From a virus (Duplodnaviria; Heunggongvirae; Uroviricota; Caudoviricetes): a stretch of DNA of 28,904 bases. Each line of letters opens with the position of its first letter. The stretch's first letter is position 1. The stretch is from IMG/VR virus record IMGVR_UViG_2600254985_000007; one strand, 5' to 3'. Below the pieces are notes generated by a model. It saw only the letters and a list, made by a program, of their open reading frames with translations, made no database searches and was not told the DNA's origin. Below are positions 1 through 21,233 of this stretch, piece after piece. The position numbers were made by a program, and so were the translations under genes.

Positions 1-1464
<1,464 letters not shown>

Positions 1465-1495: not shown

Positions 1496-1828
1496 TTAAA
1501 CGATGCTGATTGCAGTACCGGCGAACGCGTTACGTTTAATGTTGTCGTCGGTGACGGCAGATGGCCAGAGGACATCTTCAATACGGAAAGAGCCAGATTT
1601 GTAATATGCCAGTTCCGCGCTGTTCTGGTCTGCGGTTACAGCCAGGATGCCCATTGCCGCGCCAGCATGAGCACCATCCCAGACGGTCAGCTTGCCAGAA
1701 GTGGCATCCAGCATGAGCGGCGTCATGGCTGGAGTGGAAGCCGTCAGTTCGCCAGGACCATACGCAGTGTGCGCCGGGTCGCTGTTACCGAGCGGCTGGT
1801 TATGTGTGAAAACTTCAGTAATTGCCAT
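1496..1828 (-). CDS. D: head decoration protein, lambda gpD family
   Basis: 110 aa, ending ...FAGTAISIV; matches lambda gpD length and conserved blocks ([23 protein letters not shown]-like). Confidence 0.92.
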
Positions 1829-3181: not shown

Positions 3182-4754
3182 CTTGCTCCTCCTCGTTTGA
3201 TTTTTTCACTCCGGCCTCAAAAGCTGCAGCGGCCCATGCCGGTGGTTTCAGACCCGCAGCACGACGCTCCATGGTTTCCCGGACCTGCTGGGCAAAAATC
3301 TCCTGATAATCATCACCGCGTTTGGCGCACTCTTTTTCATACGTGCTGAGACCTGCCTCAATGAGCATGACGGCCTCCTGTACCTCTTTCAGCCCGTCAA
3401 TTGCCATTCGACCAGAGCCAATCCAGTTGGCATTCCCCCAGGCTGTTCTCGCCTCCTGGAAACTGAACCGGGCTTTCGAAGGAAGCGTGACCACGCGGCG
3501 GACAATCGCCTCTTCAAGCCAGCAAAGAAACATCTGACAGGCCTGTCGGGATGCCACAAACTTGCGACGCCCCATAAAGTACGCCCAGGACTCGTTAGCA
3601 CTTGCGCGTGCGGTCGAGTAGCTCATCTGCGAATAGTTTCGCGAAAGCTGCTCATACGACACACCAAGCCCAGCGGCAATATAACGCAGCAGGGACTGTT
3701 CAAAAGTCGAGTAGCCGTTATCGGTATCCTGCGCCGACTGAAGGTTGAGAGAATCACCCGGCAACAGGTGTGGAACCCTTGCCCCACCCAGGCGAACAGG
3801 CGCAGCTGAGTAATAGGACGCCATTTCACCGAGCCAGCCCGTAAGTTTGCTCTGCTGCTCTTTATTATCCGCGCCGAGAATAAAGTCCATCGCCGATTGG
3901 GTATCCAGTTCACTCTCGATGGTAGCGGCATACATAGCCTTCACTATCGCGCTCTGGAGCTGGGTATTTTGCAGGGTATCGAGCATTTTCATCTGCTCCA
4001 TCACGCTGTAAAACGCATTGGCCCCACGGGTCTGTCCATCCTCCATCGGTTCGAATACATGGATAAATGAAGGTCGACCGCCGGGTAGTTCGCGAGGAAT
4101 GTAGGTCCAGTTCTGCGCCATCCAGCCGGGATAACCATCGTCGCTGACGTAATATCCCAGCGCAGCACCGCTATCATTTATTTTCACACCGGCGCGACAG
4201 TTCCGGGTATCACCGATATTATTCGGATTGCTGACGCGCTTCGGACTGACCATTTTGAACTGAGTACGGAAAAGACGCGTTGAATCGCTGTCCCAGGTCG
4301 CCTGCGTGCATAATTCACCGTTAAACGCGTGCATGGCCACACCTTCTCGGATCATCATCGTAAACGTTCGCTTACGCTCGGCATCAATCCCGCAAAAGTC
4401 GTCCTCGGCATACTCGTTCCAGGCGGCTTCTACATCCCGCGAAAATGCGCGTGAATCCTCCTCATTGATGCCAAGATAGCGCCAGCTCGGTCGATAGCTG
4501 AGTCTGAAAAATGACCCGACGATGTGGTCCTGGTGGAGCTGCACGGCGTTTGCCGCATAGCCATTATTTCTGACCAGATCGTCAGCACGGGCATTTCCGC
4601 GCGAGAAGTTAGGCAGAAGAGCCGCATCAGCACTTTCGCTTGGTGGATTCCAGCCCCGCAACTGACCACCAAACCCTCCGCCGCCGCCATGATACCCCGC
4701 GTATTCCCGGAGGGATGTTTTCCCGTCAGGACCCACTAAAGATGGTATTTTCAT
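3162..4754 (-). CDS. B: portal protein, lambda gpB family
   Basis: 530 aa, N-terminus [38 protein letters not shown]... typical of lambda B; overlaps C start as in lambda. Confidence 0.93.
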
Positions 4755-17513: not shown

Positions 17514-18056
17514 TCATATAACCCCCAGCATCGATGTAACCATCGTCATCAGCGGTCCTACCTGCTCCGGCATGAGGCGAAACAATGACGCTATGCCCTC
17601 GCTTACCTCCTTCATTTTCTGGTGCTCAGGCGCGTTCAGGAGAACGGCTTGCTTTGCTTCTGAACATTCCTTCATGGCAGATGCGATCAGCGACATGGTG
17701 TCGTTCTGCGGCGCCAGGCGTGTACGAAACTCAACAGGAAGAACAGCCATGATTGCCGGGGTCAGTTCTCTAACGTTCTCGCGGTACTGATCGGAGTCGA
17801 AGCGGTTATCCAGAAAGCGAAAAAGTTTCTGGCGCGCCCTGCTGATGTCTTCTGGGAAGCTGATGGCGGTACCGCCCTGCTCCCGGTATTCGTTGATGAT
17901 CAGCGCTGACACTACGTCCTGATTGTCCAGGGACGACGACCATGCACGGACCGCATCGCGGATTTTGTCGTGACCTGGCTCCGCCTTAGGTTGAGCGCGG
18001 TTTATCATCGCTCCCGGGTGTATTCCGGTATTGTGTTGATACGCAAGTGAATGCAT
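17514..18056 (-). CDS. ydaT: YdaT-like protein in the cII position
   Basis: Segment ...INEYREQGGTAISFPEDISRARQKLFRFL...LTPAIMAVLPVEFRTRL... resembles Rac YdaT; follows the Cro-like YdaS gene. Start codon uncertain (alternative ATG at 18006-18008). Confidence 0.6.
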   Translation of the reverse strand: MHSLAYQHNTGIHPGAMINRAQPKAEPGHDKIRDAVRAWSSSLDNQDVVSALIINEYREQGGTAISFPEDISRARQKLFRFLDNRFDSDQYRENVRELTPAIMAVLPVEFRTRLAPQNDTMSLIASAMKECSEAKQAVLLNAPEHQKMKEVSEGIASLFRLMPEQVGPLMTMVTSMLGVI

Positions 18057-18086: not shown

Positions 18087-18308
18087 TTAGGCGGCAAAGA
18101 TACCTGGATATAGAACTTCGCGAGGAAGTCCGGTTACTTCTTCGTATTTACGCATTTTTGTTACTGGAAGGCTGCCACCTCGCTTTTTAAGCATATTGAT
18201 GGCCTGAGGCGTTACGCCGACCTTTTCAGCAAGCACCTTTTGAGAGCCGCCCACTGCATTAATGGCTTTCTCAAGCGGGGTGCTGGCGTTGGATTTTTTG
18301 TTGATCAT
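18087..18308 (-). CDS. cro: Cro-like HTH repressor (YdaS family)
   Basis: 73 aa with HTH ...GSQKVLAEKVGVTPQAINMLKKRGG...; divergent from cI across an operator-containing intergenic region. Confidence 0.85.
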   Translation of the reverse strand: MINKKSNASTPLEKAINAVGGSQKVLAEKVGVTPQAINMLKKRGGSLPVTKMRKYEEVTGLPREVLYPGIFAA

Positions 18309-18338
18309 GTTTTGCTCCGCTCATGTGTAATCAACACC

Positions 18339-18367
18339 ATGTTAATTCATGGCGTGGATTAAATCAA
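18339..18367 (-). promoter_or_regulatory. PR-like promoter for cro within the OR operator region (operator repeats at 18328, 18361, 18385)
   Basis: Minus strand TTGATT-N17-TAACAT upstream of cro; three direct AAATC(A/C)ACA repeats in the cI-cro intergenic region. Confidence 0.5.
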
Positions 18368-18425
18368 CATTATGGTGATGGAAAAAATCCACATGTTGTT
18401 TACCATGCATGGAGCGGAGGGTTTT

Positions 18426-19136
18426 ATGAGCAGCATTTCTGAAAGAATTAAATTTTTACTGGCAAGGGAAGGCTTGAAGCAGCGGGATTTGGCTGAGGCT
18501 TTGTCGACTAGCCCACAGACCGTCAACAACTGGATAAAAAGAGACGCGTTAAGTCGTGAGGCGGCGCAACAAATATCTGAAAAATTCGGTTATTCTCTTG
18601 ACTGGTTATTAAATGGAGAGGGTTCTCCAAAGAAGGATCTGGAGAGCAACATCCCGCCAGAGTCTGAGTGGGGAACTGTCGACGCTTGGGACAAAAATAC
18701 CCCCCTACCTGACGATGAGGTGGAAGTACCGTTTCTGAAGGATATCGAGTTTGCGTGTGGTGATGGACGAGTACACGATGAGGATCACAACGGTTTTAAA
18801 TTGCGCTTTTCAAAAGCAACGCTCCGTCGAGTTGGAGCCAATAGTGATGGTTCTGGTGTCCTGTGTTTTCCTGCATCAGGAGACAGTATGGAGCCAGTCA
18901 TTCCTGATGGTGCAACTGTAGCTGTTGATACTGGTAATAAGCGAGTTATTGACGGCGAACTCTACGCCATCAACCAGGGAGATCTGAAGCGCATCAAGCA
19001 ACTTTATCGCAAACCAGGCGGAAAAATTCTAATCAGAAGCATTAATCGTGATTATGACGACGAAGAGGCCGATGAGGCAGATGTCGAGATAATCGGTTTT
19101 GTGTTCTGGTACTCGGTATTGCGATATCGCCGATAA
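18426..19136 (+). CDS. cI: CI-like prophage repressor (HTH plus S24 LexA-like peptidase domain)
   Basis: HTH ...LKQRDLAEALSTSPQTVNNWIKRD... and C-terminal S24 signature ...PASGDSMEPVIPDGATVAVD...GELYAINQGDLKRIKQLYRKPGGKILIRSINRDY. Start at ATG 18426 with GGAGG SD; the track ORF begins upstream at 18372. Confidence 0.9.
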   Translation: MSSISERIKFLLAREGLKQRDLAEALSTSPQTVNNWIKRDALSREAAQQISEKFGYSLDWLLNGEGSPKKDLESNIPPESEWGTVDAWDKNTPLPDDEVEVPFLKDIEFACGDGRVHDEDHNGFKLRFSKATLRRVGANSDGSGVLCFPASGDSMEPVIPDGATVAVDTGNKRVIDGELYAINQGDLKRIKQLYRKPGGKILIRSINRDYDDEEADEADVEIIGFVFWYSVLRYRR

Positions 19137-19165
19137 TTTTAGTGGCCTGAAGAGACGTTTGGGTG

Positions 19166-19237
19166 ATGAGAGAATATCTGATAGTAGGCGTGGTTACTTT
19201 GCTCTCGGTTGTTGCGATCGTGCTTATGGTGGCCTGA
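19166..19237 (+). CDS. candidate 23-aa hydrophobic peptide (MREYLIVGVVTLLSVVAIVLMVA)
   Basis: Manual translation of a short ORF between cI and the next gene; entirely hydrophobic apart from the first residues; weak SD. Lies between two ~28-bp direct repeats. Confidence 0.3.
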   Translation: MREYLIVGVVTLLSVVAIVLMVA

Positions 19238-19272
19238 TGAGACGTTTTGGTGAAAGCATATAAGGACTGTTG

Positions 19273-20139
19273 ATGGAAAACACTGGCTTACACGATGTTA
19301 ATTTTTCACTTAGATATGACGGTTTGGATGCTGAAAAGCATGAGATTGAACTTTCTTCGCTCGGTGAATCGCTAAAGGGATTTTCGAAGATATTAGCTAC
19401 AGCTGGAACCTTCGCATTAACCCAAAAGTACTCGCGAAGCACCTCAACTCAAGAGGTTAAAATTTACGCTACCGAAGCTAGGGCCAATTGTTTTTCTCTT
19501 GATACTATCATGAATTTTATCAGTCAGTCTCAATTGTTCTCAGGGTCTGCGGGGGCTATACTTGGCGCATTAGTGCCTTATATCTTCGCTAAAAACTCGC
19601 AGAAGAAAGAGGAAATGAAATACCTAAAAGAAGCACTTGAGAAGGCAATTGAGGCCCTCGGAAATAAAGATAAAGATACCATCTCAGGTCTAATCTCAGT
19701 GATTGACAAGATGGCTAGTGAGTTACGCCCATCAGTTAGACAGGCAGTTTCCCCCATCGGTACCACCTGTAATAAGATAAGCGTCACACCGGGGAATGGT
19801 TTCAAGCCTGCTGTAATTGATGAGCAAGATAAAGCAGTAATAGACCAGTTGGACGACGACGAAGTTCTTGGCTTAAGGGAGTATCGAATCTTCCTTACTG
19901 AATTCGACGCTCACCGAATGACCGCTAAAGTCATTATAGAAGGTGATGATTCAGATAAGCGCATCTCAGCACAAATAAGCGATCCATCTGCTTCAAAGGC
20001 AGACAACCCGTATCTCATTTCACTTAGTCGTTTTCTGTCAACGGGTCTAAGTCATGAGTCAGCGGTAAAAGTAACTGCCAAAGCAGCAGTTAGAAAAGGG
20101 GCTATTAGTAAACTTTTCATAGTTGATATTGAGCTTTAA
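19273..20139 (+). CDS. hypothetical protein (288 aa), AT-rich cargo gene in the rexAB position downstream of cI
   Basis: ORF with AAGGA SD 6 nt upstream of ATG 19273 (track start at 19270 is TTG); lower GC than flanking genes; followed by an intrinsic terminator; no recognisable family. Confidence 0.75.
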
Positions 20140-20142
20140 CAA

Positions 20143-20166
20143 CCGGCCACCGCGCCGGGTTTTTTG
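20143..20166 (+). terminator. intrinsic terminator ending the cI-cargo transcript
   Basis: CCGGC-CACCGC-GCCGG hairpin followed by GTTTTTTG, 4 nt after the stop codon. Confidence 0.7.
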
Positions 20167-20169
20167 TGC

Positions 20170-20379
20170 CTACTTCACAGCTTTACTACCCTTCCTGACT
20201 ATCTCAGCTGCATCCCTGTTCACACCCTTACCTATCACGTTTCCCGTTTCCTTCCGGTACCGTTCCAGCTTGTCGATGATGTTTTGCTGGGTCATAGGTA
20301 AATCTGCCAGTGACAACTCCATGACCGCCCGCCCCATGGCGTGAACCATCATGTTCACTCTTTCTTCATCCAAGTCCAT
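20170..20379 (-). CDS. hypothetical small protein (69 aa), divergent from PL and convergent with the rex-position gene
   Basis: Strong SD (AAGGAG-N6-ATG); MDLDEERVNMMVHAMGRAVMELSLADLPMTQQNIIDKLERYRKETGN...; no family recognised. Confidence 0.7.
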   Translation of the reverse strand: MDLDEERVNMMVHAMGRAVMELSLADLPMTQQNIIDKLERYRKETGNVIGKGVNRDAAEIVRKGSKAVK

Positions 20380-20433: not shown

Positions 20434-20520
20434 AAATCAACATAAAAATCAACAGTAAACGATTAAATCAACAAAATAAATCCACAAGGTGTTGACCTAC
20501 AAATCCACATGATGTTTAAT
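20434..20520 (+). promoter_or_regulatory. OL operator cluster (five direct AAATC(A/C)ACA repeats) with PL-like promoter TTGACC-N17-TTTAAT (20492-20520)
   Basis: Repeats at 20434, 20446, 20465, 20478, 20501 match those in the cI-cro intergenic region; near-consensus sigma70 promoter reading rightward into the early-left operon. Confidence 0.65.
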
Positions 20521-20936: not shown

Positions 20937-21233
20937 ATGATCGACGACATCAAGCGCATCGACTCAATGATAAATGCGCTTCGCAATATGAAACAGGACA
21001 TCAAGCGTCAGCAGAAACTAAGTGAAATAAACAGTTTAGACCTGTCGCCGAAGCAAGCTCAAAAGCGCAATGCCGATGCTGACTGGATTGCGATGGAACA
21101 GATTAAGCGTCGGCATGAGCTGCACGCTCTGTCTGTTGAGCTTGGGTTCGCTGAGCGCCGGGAAAGTTATGCTCCATTTGAATTAACTGACGGGTGGCAC
21201 CGATTCGACCACAAGCCGCGCGAACCTCAATAG
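20937..21233 (+). CDS. hypothetical protein (98 aa), first ORF of the early-left operon
   Basis: ORF with purine-rich SD; basic and charged; no clear Arg-rich N-like motif. Confidence 0.6.
   Translation: MIDDIKRIDSMINALRNMKQDIKRQQKLSEINSLDLSPKQAQKRNADADWIAMEQIKRRHELHALSVELGFAERRESYAPFELTDGWHRFDHKPREPQ

What the first reader, a model, noticed from the sequence alone, without database searches (positions are those of the whole stretch)
19142..19256. Pair of ~28-bp direct repeats bracketing a 23-codon hydrophobic ORF
TGGCCTGAAGAGACGTTTGGGTGATGAG (19143-19170) and TGGCCTGATGAGACGTTTTGGTGAAAGC (19229-19256) are near-identical direct repeats about 86 bp apart. The first contains the start and the second the stop of an ORF encoding MREYLIVGVVTLLSVVAIVLMVA, a single hydrophobic helix of the kind seen in type I toxins and small membrane regulators. 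The repeats could instead be an insertion scar from acquisition of the downstream cargo gene, or an RNA element.
Basis: seen in the sequence. Interest (0 to 1): 0.5.

Follow-up and report, generated by a model that had tools for sequence, protein, structure and literature searches.

The report
Repressor-tail repeats flanking a tiny membrane gene
The two repeats in phage phi80 are leftover copies of the last 24 bases of a lambda-type repressor gene that mark where phage gene modules get swapped, and the 24-codon hydrophobic reading frame between them is a conserved, never-annotated candidate micro-gene found in dozens of related prophages and in the lab strains DH5alpha and DH10B.

Summary
The window is the phage phi80 immunity region, and the repeats lie in the 136-bp cI–40A spacer. 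In detail: 19142-19166 and 19229-19253 match at 23/25, 87 bp apart, with 0 expected by chance.

**The repeats.** Each is the 3' terminus of a lambda-type cI gene (TGG CCT GAA GAG ACG TTT GGx TGA, WPEETFG-stop). In phi80 both copies are non-coding relics. In relatives, mosaic breakpoints fall at these "tails".

**The 57-nt core.** It is a single conserved cassette, 98.7% identical across about 62 loci from Escherichia-, Klebsiella- and Enterobacter-type prophages. It sits next to 10 upstream and 22 downstream contexts.

**Evidence it codes for a protein:**
- All 6 polymorphic sites are third codon positions.
- Two diverged 23-24-codon paralogues keep the frame and the hydrophobicity.
- The GTG start overlaps the stop of true cI genes, or follows a strong ribosome-binding site.
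- The neighbouring slots hold YoaK-family and other small membrane ORFs.

**Not supported.** There is no RNA structure, no own promoter and no type I toxin features. In phi80 itself the ribosome-binding site is weak and expression is untested.

**Verdict.** The repeats are recombination-junction relics around a probable new small membrane protein gene.

The parts
18426..19136 (+). phi80 cI repressor gene (236 aa), whose operon (pRM) contains everything below
   Evidence: 100% match to JX871397.1 with cI annotated. Pfam Peptidase_S24 E=8e-20 and Phage_CI_repr E=2e-10.
19140..19166 (+). Left 'cI tail': a non-coding relic of the last 8 codons plus stop of a lambda-type cI (TAG TGG CCT GAA GAG ACG TTT GGG TGA). 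It is in frame with phi80 cI but lies behind its TAA stop and a further TAG.
   Evidence: 23/24 identical to the lambda cI 3' end. The same 24-27 nt is the true CDS end in HK542, 2G7b and S107, and a relic after H-19B cI. In 120 IMG/VR loci, 75 of 128 copies end a cI-sized ORF and 53 are relics, with 45 different continuations after the TGA.
19163..19237 (+). Small ORF 'X': GTG(19163)/ATG(19166) to TGA, reading (M)MREYLIVGVVTLLSVVAIVLMVA. It is a candidate single-pass membrane peptide, unannotated in GenBank and RefSeq.
   Evidence: ORF listing. Hydrophobicity rank 1 of 247. Conserved in about 62 loci with only third-codon-position polymorphism. Paralogues X' and X''. Not annotated and not in the protein collection.
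19167..19228 (+). Unique core of the cassette (between the two tails)
   Evidence: The 57-nt part 19172-19228 shows 98.7% mean pairwise identity and 5 polymorphic columns across 49 distinct loci. Identity is 89% for the left tail, 85% for the right tail, and 31-36% for the flanks. Every true tandem-tail locus in unbiased scans carries this same core.
19229..19253 (+). Right 'cI tail' relic (G TGG CCT GAT GAG ACG TTT TGG TGA, WPDETFW-stop). Its first 9 nt supply the last two codons and the stop of ORF X. It travels with gene 40A.
   Evidence: Identical tail plus 40A occurs directly behind a different cI in E. coli TC24, without X.
19273..20139 (+). Gene 40A: downstream cargo in the cI-N accessory slot (DUF7946 + DUF7947), function unknown
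   Evidence: Annotation. Pfam DUF7946 E=4e-62 and DUF7947 E=1e-20. Weak PADLOC hit PDC-S42 E=1e-5. phrog_5147.
20143..20168 (+). Terminator-like hairpin plus T-run right after 40A; probable end of the pRM operon
   Evidence: scan_promoters_terminators: CCGGCCACCGCGCCGG followed by GTTTTTTGTG.

Best explanation
The feature has two layers.

(a) The direct repeats are two copies of the 'cI tail', the last ~24 nt (WPEETFG-stop) of lambda-type repressor genes. Among heteroimmune lambdoid phages this short patch is the only conserved sequence between the repressor gene and the variable accessory slot (the rexAB position in lambda). It therefore serves as the crossover point where repressors and downstream cargo are reshuffled. 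In phi80, whose own cI ends 27 nt earlier, both copies are untranslated relics brought in with the modules to their right.

(b) The segment between them is a tiny gene of 24 codons. Its GTG start is built from the tail's GGGTGA, and its stop comes from the next tail. It encodes one transmembrane helix.

The gene is transcribed with cI from pRM/pRE. In phages with a true lambda-type cI its start overlaps the cI stop (GTGA), so terminating ribosomes can reinitiate. In other phages a GAGGTG Shine-Dalgarno inside the tail serves it.

I infer that the peptide inserts into the inner membrane of the lysogen. There it would act like other prophage accessory products of this slot, modulating a host membrane protein or excluding other phages.

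Shown: the identity of the repeats, breakpoints at the repeats, conservation of the cassette, and codon-position and paralogue patterns. Inferred: translation in phi80, membrane insertion, and the physiological role.
For: **Repeats are the cI tail.**
- Lambda cI ends ...CAG TGG CCT GAA GAG ACG TTT GGC TGA.
- The same tail is in-CDS in HK542, 2G7b and S107 and is a relic after H-19B cI.
- About 100 phage records match only window 19141-19171.

**Junction role.**
- KL53 has phi80 cI + tail-X-tail + other cargo.
- CB7286 has H-19B-type cI + tail-X-tail + other cargo.
- TC24 has another cI + a single tail + 40A.
- 45 different sequences follow the tail in 128 copies.
- The X cassette has 10 upstream and 22 downstream contexts.

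**Cassette conservation.** The core is 98.7% identical, against 85-89% for the tails. Unbiased tandem-tail scans recover only this core.

**Coding evidence.**
- All 6 polymorphic sites in X are codon position 3: 4 synonymous and 2 Met-to-Ile, p about 0.001. With the unbiased set only it is 5/5, p about 0.004.
- No frameshift or nonsense mutation occurs in 65 loci.
- Paralogues X' (MMRDYLIVGTVTVLTATVIFLIVA, L175) and X'' (MREYLIVGAVTLVSLIVIAFIVV, L359) keep length, frame and hydrophobicity despite 22 and 17 nt differences out of 69 (simulation p=0.016 and 0.003).
- GTG is kept in 61 of 62 loci.
- The GTG overlaps the stop of 216-240-codon cI genes in L161, L176, L180 and L192; in L106 and L173 the same tail ends cI reading frames cut off by the contig (151 and 112 codons).
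- A GAGGTG SD (-9.4 kcal/mol, 4-5 nt spacing) is present in 32 of 62 loci.
- In L106, L175, L191 and L194 the cassette is followed directly by an intrinsic-terminator hairpin. In three of them X is the only cargo of the cI operon; L175 also carries Z and X'.

**Neighbourhood.** The same slot holds YoaK-family (NF033821, E=2e-18) and other single-TM micro-ORFs with strong SDs and abundant synonymous divergence.
Against: - In phi80 itself the SD is weak (-2.9 kcal/mol). cI stops 27 nt upstream, so direct stop-start coupling is lost.
- 27 of 62 loci have ATA instead of the ATG, leaving only a GTG start.
- X is almost invariant, so the selection test rests on 6 sites and two paralogues. For X'' the number of amino-acid changes is not lower than random (p=0.285).
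- High identity across contexts could also reflect recent spread by recombination.
- No gene caller or curator has ever called it.
- No family matches it.
- No expression data were available here.
Confidence: 0.6

Rival explanations
1. The repeats are cI-tail junction relics as above, but the sequence between them is non-functional DNA. It would be a hitchhiking spacer, for example a remnant of an old cargo gene, trapped between two recombination hot spots. It would look conserved only because it spread recently.
For: - The core is nearly invariant (98.7%), which is what a young sequence would show.
- The SD in phi80 is weak.
- Half of the loci lack the ATG.
- It has never been annotated and is not in the 15-billion-protein collection.
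- Among isolated phages in INPHARED only phi80 carries it.
Against: - All 6 polymorphisms are at third codon positions.
- X' and X'', 25-32% diverged at the nucleotide level, keep start, stop, length and hydrophobicity.
- The cassette persists between 25-bp direct repeats that should delete it easily.
- Four prophages carry it directly in front of a terminator.
- No longer ancestral ORF was found.
Confidence: 0.27
2. The ORF is the toxin of a type I toxin-antitoxin pair (Ibs/Sib-, TisB-, Hok-like), kept silent by an antisense or nearby small RNA.
For: It is a short, extremely hydrophobic peptide starting MMR, reminiscent of IbsC (from memory). It ranks 1 of 247 for hydrophobicity.
Against: - No promoter-like site exists on either strand inside 19137-19272.
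- Neither strand shows stable RNA structure (z +1.41 and +0.62).
- Rfam found nothing.
- The flanks are non-homologous between loci, so there is no room for a conserved antitoxin gene.
- The ORF lies in the repressor operon, which is on in every lysogen.
Confidence: 0.03
3. The repeats and core act at the RNA or DNA level. Candidates are a processing or attenuation signal in the pRM transcript, a ribozyme (the right repeat contains CUGAUGAG ... GAAA), or a DNA site such as the aba self-immunity element found just downstream of cI in phage BTP1.
For: - Nucleotide conservation of the core is very high.
- The position and size resemble the 63-bp aba element of BstA loci (PMC8585504).
- A CUGAUGAG motif is seen directly in the sequence.
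Against: - Rfam gathering and E-value searches give no hammerhead or other hit.
- Fold energies are no better than shuffles.
- The two repeats are direct, not inverted.
- The cassette is linked to 22 different cargoes, so it cannot be a cargo-specific immunity site.
- Third-position-only polymorphism and frame-preserving paralogues are not expected of a non-coding element.
Confidence: 0.06
4. The whole 87-bp unit is a decayed tandem duplication of the 3' end of a cI gene, and the ORF is the frameshifted relic of the last beta-strand of the S24 domain.
For: - There is a superficial resemblance of EIIGFVFWYSVL (phi80 cI) to LIVGVVTLLSVV, and of TCGGTATTGCGAT to TCGGTTGTTGCGAT.
- The unit ends in a cI tail.
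Against: Local alignment of the core against the 3' coding region of phi80, lambda, S107-type, L175 and L359 cI genes is not better than shuffles (p=0.08, 0.43, 0.10, 0.10, 0.37). The WPEETFG frame of the core contains three stops.
Confidence: 0.04

Closest known systems
Mosaic module boundaries in the cI-N region of lambdoid phages (modular theory 'linker' sequences; Degnan et al. 2007, as cited in PMC8585504)
   Same: A short conserved patch flanked by unrelated modules. It is shared by heteroimmune phages, and natural recombinants break exactly at it. The cI-N region is already described as a hotspot of mosaic diversity.
   Different: Here the patch is identified as the last 24 nt of lambda-type cI. 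It is shown to persist as a non-coding relic behind unrelated repressors (phi80, H-19B, TC24) and to occur in tandem around a micro-gene. I could not read Degnan 2007 or Rotman 2012, so I cannot say how much of this they noted.
Accessory genes co-transcribed with the repressor from pRM: lambda rexAB, 434 hex, BTP1 bstA
   Same: The position immediately downstream of cI is the same, and so is the operon. 434 hex is even reported to overlap the 3' end of the repressor gene (PMC3564112). These products act in lysogens on exclusion, abortive infection or repressor stability.
   Different: Those are 144-279 aa (Rex), 158 aa (Hex) or larger proteins with experimental phenotypes. X is 24 codons and has no data.
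Validated E. coli small membrane proteins YoaK (32 aa) and YoaJ (24 aa)
   Same: X is a single hydrophobic helix of the same size class. A YoaK-family ORF (NF033821, E=2e-18) sits next to X in several prophages. In K-12, yoaK is followed 2 nt later by the 24-codon yoaJ.
   Different: X does not match the YoaJ model NF011343, and BLASTP finds no alignment. Any relationship is one of gene class and neighbourhood, not demonstrable homology.
Type I toxins (Ibs, TisB, Hok, DinQ)
   Same: Short, very hydrophobic peptides.
   Different: X has no antisense RNA, no own promoter and no structured leader, and it is constitutively co-transcribed with the repressor.

Membership tests
3' terminus of lambda-type cI genes ('WPEETFG-stop tail') | Nucleotide identity to the last 24 nt of lambda cI (TGGCCTGAAGAGACGTTTGGCTGA) | tested here: met
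   Copy 1 is 23/24 and copy 2 is 21/24 against the lambda sequence. The same element occurs in about 100 phage records.
3' terminus of lambda-type cI genes ('WPEETFG-stop tail') | Forms the translated end of a repressor CDS | tested here: not met
   In phi80, cI stops at TAA 19134-19136 and a TAG follows. Both copies lie outside any long ORF. They are relics, as are 53 of 128 copies in IMG/VR loci.
Mosaic junction / linker sequence of lambdoid phages | Conserved patch bordered on both sides by non-homologous sequence in different phages | tested here: met
   Flank identity is 31-36%, against 85-89% in the tails. There are 45 different continuations after the tail.
Mosaic junction / linker sequence of lambdoid phages | Natural recombinants with breakpoints at the patch | tested here: met
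   KL53, CB7286 and TC24 compared with phi80.
Small membrane proteins (50 aa or fewer, single TM helix) | Hydrophobic stretch long enough to span the membrane | tested here: met
   20 consecutive hydrophobic or small residues after MMRE. The best 19-residue KD mean is 3.01, rank 1 of 247.
Small membrane proteins (50 aa or fewer, single TM helix) | Reading frame under purifying selection in relatives | tested here: met
   6/6 polymorphisms at codon position 3 and no disrupting mutation in 65 loci. X' and X'' keep frame, length and hydrophobicity (p=0.016 and 0.003). Caveat: few informative sites.
Small membrane proteins (50 aa or fewer, single TM helix) | Ribosome-binding site or translational coupling | tested here: inconclusive
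   The phi80 context is weak (-2.9 kcal/mol). 32 of 62 relatives have GAGGTG (-9.4), and four or more have a GTGA overlap with a true cI stop.
Small membrane proteins (50 aa or fewer, single TM helix) | Protein or ribosome footprints detected | not testable with these tools
   Public DH10B Ribo-seq exists (GSE152664, PMC7536230) but raw reads cannot be analysed here.
Type I toxin-antitoxin system | Antisense or adjacent small RNA gene with its own promoter | tested here: not met
   No promoter-like site on either strand in 19137-19272. The flanks are not conserved between loci. No Rfam hit.
Type I toxin-antitoxin system | Structured toxin mRNA leader that limits translation | tested here: not met
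   Fold z-score +1.41.
Type I toxin-antitoxin system | Toxicity on overexpression | not testable with these tools
   Needs an experiment.
Hammerhead ribozyme | Match to the covariance models (CUGAUGA...GAAA core with three helices) | tested here: not met
   No hit at gathering threshold or at E<=10, despite the CUGAUGAG...GAAA string in the right repeat.
YoaJ / YoaK families | Match to NCBIfam NF011343 (YoaJ) or NF033821 (YoaK) | tested here: not met
   X, X' and X'' give no hit, while the controls YoaJ (E=1e-16) and the neighbouring ORF Y (E=2e-18) do. BLASTP of X against YoaJ gives no alignment.

The most novel reading that the evidence does not exclude
The repressor operon of lambdoid prophages in Escherichia, Klebsiella and Enterobacter carries a shuffled array of micro-genes for single-helix membrane peptides: X, X', X'', a YoaK homologue, Z and W. 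The array is delimited and exchanged through copies of the cI tail, a cassette system that runs on homologous recombination. X would be a previously unseen peptide family that is made in every lysogen, including DH5alpha and DH10B. It would alter a host membrane function such as phage DNA entry, a transporter or a sensor kinase.
Probability: 0.25. Interest if true: 0.7.

Novelty: new member of a known kind. Interest (0 to 1): 0.5.

Why it matters
phi80 is a classic phage, and its immunity region sits in the chromosomes of DH5alpha, DH10B/TOP10 and NEB 10-beta. An unannotated membrane peptide expressed from the repressor operon would therefore be present in the most widely used cloning hosts.

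More generally, gene callers miss 24-codon genes. The slot next to prophage repressors is known for defence and exclusion functions, so a family of micro-proteins there is a plausible and directly testable source of lysogenic-conversion phenotypes.

Identifying the repeats as cI tails also gives a concrete, sequence-level example of how heteroimmune lambdoid phages swap repressor and cargo modules. It explains why fragments of a lambda-type repressor gene turn up behind unrelated repressors.

Tried and rejected
- **RNA element or ribozyme.** The right repeat contains CUGAUGAG...GAAA. Rfam over the whole window at gathering threshold found nothing. Rfam in E-value mode on 19050-19350 gave only noise, E 4-8. 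RNA folds of both strands were no better than shuffles.
- **Promoter or terminator inside the spacer.** None found.
- **Core as a decayed duplicate of a cI 3' coding region.** Alignments to five cI genes were not significant.
- **Core as the N-terminal stump of a longer cargo protein.** tblastn against 50,697 phages found only phi80. A degenerate scan for the first 9-10 codons in IMG/VR recovered only the standard cassette.
- **Protein-database look-ups.**
  - Five spellings of the peptide, and X' and X'', are absent from the 15-billion-sequence collection.
  - The search for homologous proteins and the search for related loci refuse queries this short.
  - Pfam, NCBIfam, PHROGs and PADLOC give no family.
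- **Relationship to YoaJ.** Rejected by model and by BLASTP.
- **Prophage YoaK-homologue DNA in E. coli complete genomes.** No match.
- **Literature.**
  - Rotman 2012 (phi80 genome) and Degnan 2007 are not held.
  - The string WPEETFG occurs in no held paper.
- **Other scans.**
  - The genome-contig scan of the tail mostly returned lambda-like DNA on short contigs of unrelated taxa and no tandem copies.
  - Most metagenome hits to the tandem-tail pattern were chance matches; 8 were real.
  - Two further degenerate family scans found only one extra relative each or chance hits.

Full report
**Where we are**

Window 18900-19500 is 100% identical to phage phi80 (JX871397.1/NC_021190.1, minus strand). 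Transferring that record's annotation gives these window coordinates:

| Feature | Window coordinates | Strand |
|---|---|---|
| cro-like gene 30 | 18087-18308 | - |
| OR/pRM | about 18330-18406 | |
| cI | 18426-19136 | + |
| unannotated spacer | 19137-19272 | |
| gene 40A | 19273-20139 | + |
| OL/pL | about 20435-20520 | |
| N | 20937-21233 | + |

The finding lies entirely in the cI-40A spacer. This is the position that rexAB occupies in lambda. Neither GenBank record nor RefSeq annotates anything there.

**Observation check**

The repeats are real. The repeat finder reports 19137-19166 against 19224-19253, 87% identical over 30 nt, with spacing 87. The 25-mer GTGGCCTGAAGAGACGTTTGGGTGA occurs twice in the window within 3 mismatches and never in 100 shuffles.

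The similarity stops at the TGA.

The ORF runs from GTG 19163 or ATG 19166 to TGA 19235-19237. It starts in the last bases of repeat 1 and stops in the first bases of repeat 2. It is the most hydrophobic of the 247 short ORFs in the window.

**What the repeats are**

A 201-bp query across the spacer matched about 100 other phage records only at window 19141-19171. These include H-19B, many Stx phages, HK542, HK244, 2G7b and Salmonella S107/S135/S137. The match always falls at or just after their cI genes.

Reading those loci shows that the repeat is the 3' end of lambda-type cI:
- Lambda ends ...GCT AGT CAG TGG CCT GAA GAG ACG TTT GGC TGA, which encodes ASQWPEETFG-stop.
- HK542, 2G7b and S107 carry it as the true end of the CDS.
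- H-19B carries it as a non-coding relic behind an unrelated cI.

In phi80 the first copy follows cI in frame but sits behind TAA TTT TAG. The second copy reads WPDETFW-stop. Both are therefore relics.

In every phage the sequence becomes unrelated one or two bases after the TGA. In 120 IMG/VR loci found with the tail pattern, 75 of 128 copies end a cI-sized ORF and 53 are relics. Forty-five different sequences follow the tail.

**The tails are recombination junctions**

Three E. coli prophages show the breakpoints directly:
- KL53 has phi80 cI, tail, the small ORF and tail, then a different cargo.
- CB7286 has an H-19B-type cI, the same tail-ORF-tail, and that other cargo.
- TC24 has a third cI, a single tail identical to phi80's right copy, and 40A, with no small ORF.

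One repeat copy does mark the cI-cargo junction. [quoted passage not shown] 2007, as cited in PMC8585504).

**The core between the tails is one conserved cassette**

Three scans define the cassette:
- A scan that preserves the amino-acid sequence found it in 48 IMG/VR contigs.
- Scans that fix only the two tails and leave the spacer free found 55 viral hits. Every one that was a true tail pair carried this same core at spacing 87.

The cassette is also in Enterobacter intestinihominis (L041). Its flanks resemble Klebsiella, Enterobacter and phi80-like phages.

Across 49 distinct loci, identity falls away from the core:

| Segment | Mean pairwise identity |
|---|---|
| 57-nt core | 98.7% (5 variable columns) |
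| left tail | 89% |
| right tail | 85% |
| flanks | 31-36% |

There are 10 upstream and 22 downstream context clusters.

In E. coli complete genomes the cassette occurs in 67 records. Most are phi80dlacZ lab strains such as DH5alpha, DH10B, TOP10 and NEB 10-beta.

**Is the ORF a gene?**

Six lines of evidence support coding:

1. All six polymorphic sites in the 75-nt ORF are third codon positions. Four are synonymous and two change ATG to ATA (Met to Ile). None of the 65 loci has a frameshift or stop. One metagenome contig (L212) has four extra changes near the start but keeps an ATG-initiated ORF.
2. Two diverged relatives exist.
   - In L175 the order is true cI, a 41-codon single-TM ORF (Z), X' (MMRDYLIVGTVTVLTATVIFLIVA), tail, X, tail, terminator.
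   - In L359 a true cI is followed by X'' (MREYLIVGAVTLVSLIVIAFIVV) and a degenerate tail.
   - Both relatives keep start, stop, length and hydrophobicity despite 22 and 17 differences in 69 nt. Random substitution does this with p=0.016 and p=0.003.
3. Translation signals are present in relatives.
   - GTG is retained in 61 of 62 loci.
   - In L161, L176, L180 and L192 the GTG overlaps the stop of a 216-240-codon cI (GTGA). L106 and L173 show the same overlap with cI frames cut by the contig end.
   - In 32 of 62 loci the tail variant GATGAGGTG supplies a strong SD 4-5 nt upstream of the GTG (-9.4 kcal/mol).
   - X' and X'' have SDs of -6.3 and -5.6 kcal/mol.
4. In L106, L175, L191 and L194 an intrinsic-terminator hairpin follows the right tail (-15 to -16.6 kcal/mol). 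In those prophages the small ORFs are the whole cargo of the cI operon.
5. The same slot holds other micro-ORFs that are clearly genes.
   - Y (32 aa) is a YoaK-family small membrane protein (NF033821, E=2e-18). It has strong SDs and heavy synonymous divergence in 18 contexts.
   - Z (39 aa) is seen on at least 1000 contigs.
6. The ORF is extremely hydrophobic.

Three points count against coding:
- In phi80 the SD is weak (-2.9 kcal/mol), and cI stops 27 nt upstream.
- The informative sites are few. For X'' the count of amino-acid replacements is not below random (p=0.285).
- There are no expression data.

**What it is not**

- It is not an RNA element. Rfam finds nothing and neither strand folds better than shuffles. 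The CUGAUGAG...GAAA string in the right tail is part of the WPDETF codons, not a hammerhead.
- It carries no promoter or terminator of its own.
- Together with non-conserved flanks and its place in the constitutively expressed repressor operon, this argues against a type I toxin-antitoxin pair.
- The core is not a recognisable duplicate of a cI coding end.
- It is not the stump of a longer protein.
- It matches no family, including YoaJ.

**Most likely mechanism**

Shown:
- The tails are shared homology patches at which repressor genes, the X cassette and cargo genes have been recombined in many combinations.
- X carries its start in one tail and its stop in the next, so it moves with either neighbour.

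Inferred:
- X is transcribed from pRM/pRE with cI, as hex is in 434 and rexAB in lambda.
- It is translated by stop-start coupling or through the tail SD, and it inserts as a single helix into the inner membrane.
- It then acts on a host membrane component to the benefit of the lysogen.
- In phi80 its translation may be low.

**Comparison, novelty and score**

The junction role fits the known modular mosaicism of lambdoid phages. The identification of the patch as a cI tail, and its tandem use around a micro-gene, is a refinement of that picture.

X is a candidate new family within the known class of small membrane proteins and prophage accessory genes. I rate it "new member of a known kind", with interest 0.5.

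It is not surprising in principle, but it is concrete and present in standard lab strains. It can be tested with existing DH10B ribosome-profiling data (GSE152664). Confidence in the combined explanation is 0.6. It is about 0.95 for the identity of the repeats and about 0.6 for a translated, selected peptide.

Noticed in passing
L203 ~4107-4205 (+), L210 ~636-734 (-), L216 (metagenome OGWT01000105.1) just downstream of X; also L336-L357: A 32-codon ORF (MRIGIAFPVIVFIVAVAFMAWFVVGGYATPGG) follows the X cassette and ends inside a third cI-tail copy. It belongs to the YoaK family of small membrane proteins (NF033821, E=2e-18). It occurs in 24 IMG/VR prophage contigs with strong SDs and much synonymous divergence, so YoaK homologues are prophage cargo in the cI-N slot.
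   Followed up: partly
L175 8192-8266 (-) and L359 ~4414-4485 (-): These are diverged paralogues of the phi80 small ORF. X' (MMRDYLIVGTVTVLTATVIFLIVA) lies in tandem with X. X'' (MREYLIVGAVTLVSLIVIAFIVV) lies directly after a true cI. Neither sequence is in the protein collection.
   Followed up: yes
L175 8279-8404 (-); L163, L165, L194 and about 14 X loci: A third small single-TM ORF family, Z (39-41 aa, e.g. MSDLIIPILITLLIIGLVGIVLRLDKIFFKRRDERDDFE), sits between cI and X or after Y. It is annotated only as a hypothetical protein and is seen on at least 1000 contigs, mostly Klebsiella. In L166 a further ORF, W (MDMRKYLAIIIAAALAALIVWQWVLDVG), lies between X and a 40A homologue.
   Followed up: partly
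window 20170-20379 (-): A 69-codon ORF between 40A and OL is not annotated in the phi80 GenBank record. It matches phrog_3975 (E=7e-35), and a similarly placed 219-nt ORF in E. coli TC24 is annotated as a hypothetical protein. It is probably a real, overlooked phi80 gene on the opposite strand.
   Followed up: partly
lambda L010 ~1690-1725 (-); L003 2645-2680; L004 2612-2645; L203/L214/L169/L172 upstream of the left tail: A second short recurrent segment (GGCAAGGTGTTCTGGTCGGCGCATAGCTG) follows the cI stop in lambda. It reappears after the right tail in 8 X loci and before the left tail in 5. The post-cI spacer is therefore itself built from shuffled short blocks.
   Followed up: partly
window 19273-20139 (+): Gene 40A is DUF7946 + DUF7947. 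It has a weak hit to the PADLOC candidate defence family PDC-S42 (E=1e-5) and to NCBIfam LAPAL_fam (E=1e-5, below cutoff). The GenBank note 'acetate kinase superfamily domain' was not reproduced by Pfam.
   Followed up: partly
L012, L013, L016-L018, L020, L022, L023, L025, L026, L030, L031, L034, L036, L037, L040, L042 (genome contigs): The lambda-type cI tail occurs on short, often low-coverage contigs in assemblies of unrelated taxa such as Limosilactobacillus, Desulfovibrio piger, Capnocytophaga, Kitasatospora, Fusobacterium and Helicobacter cinaedi. This looks like lambda or vector DNA contamination of those assemblies.
   Followed up: no
window 17514-18056 (-): The gene annotated as phi80 cII (180 aa) is labelled 'toxin YdaT family protein' by RefSeq in the KL53 and TC24 prophages. 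The two annotations of the same position conflict.
   Followed up: no
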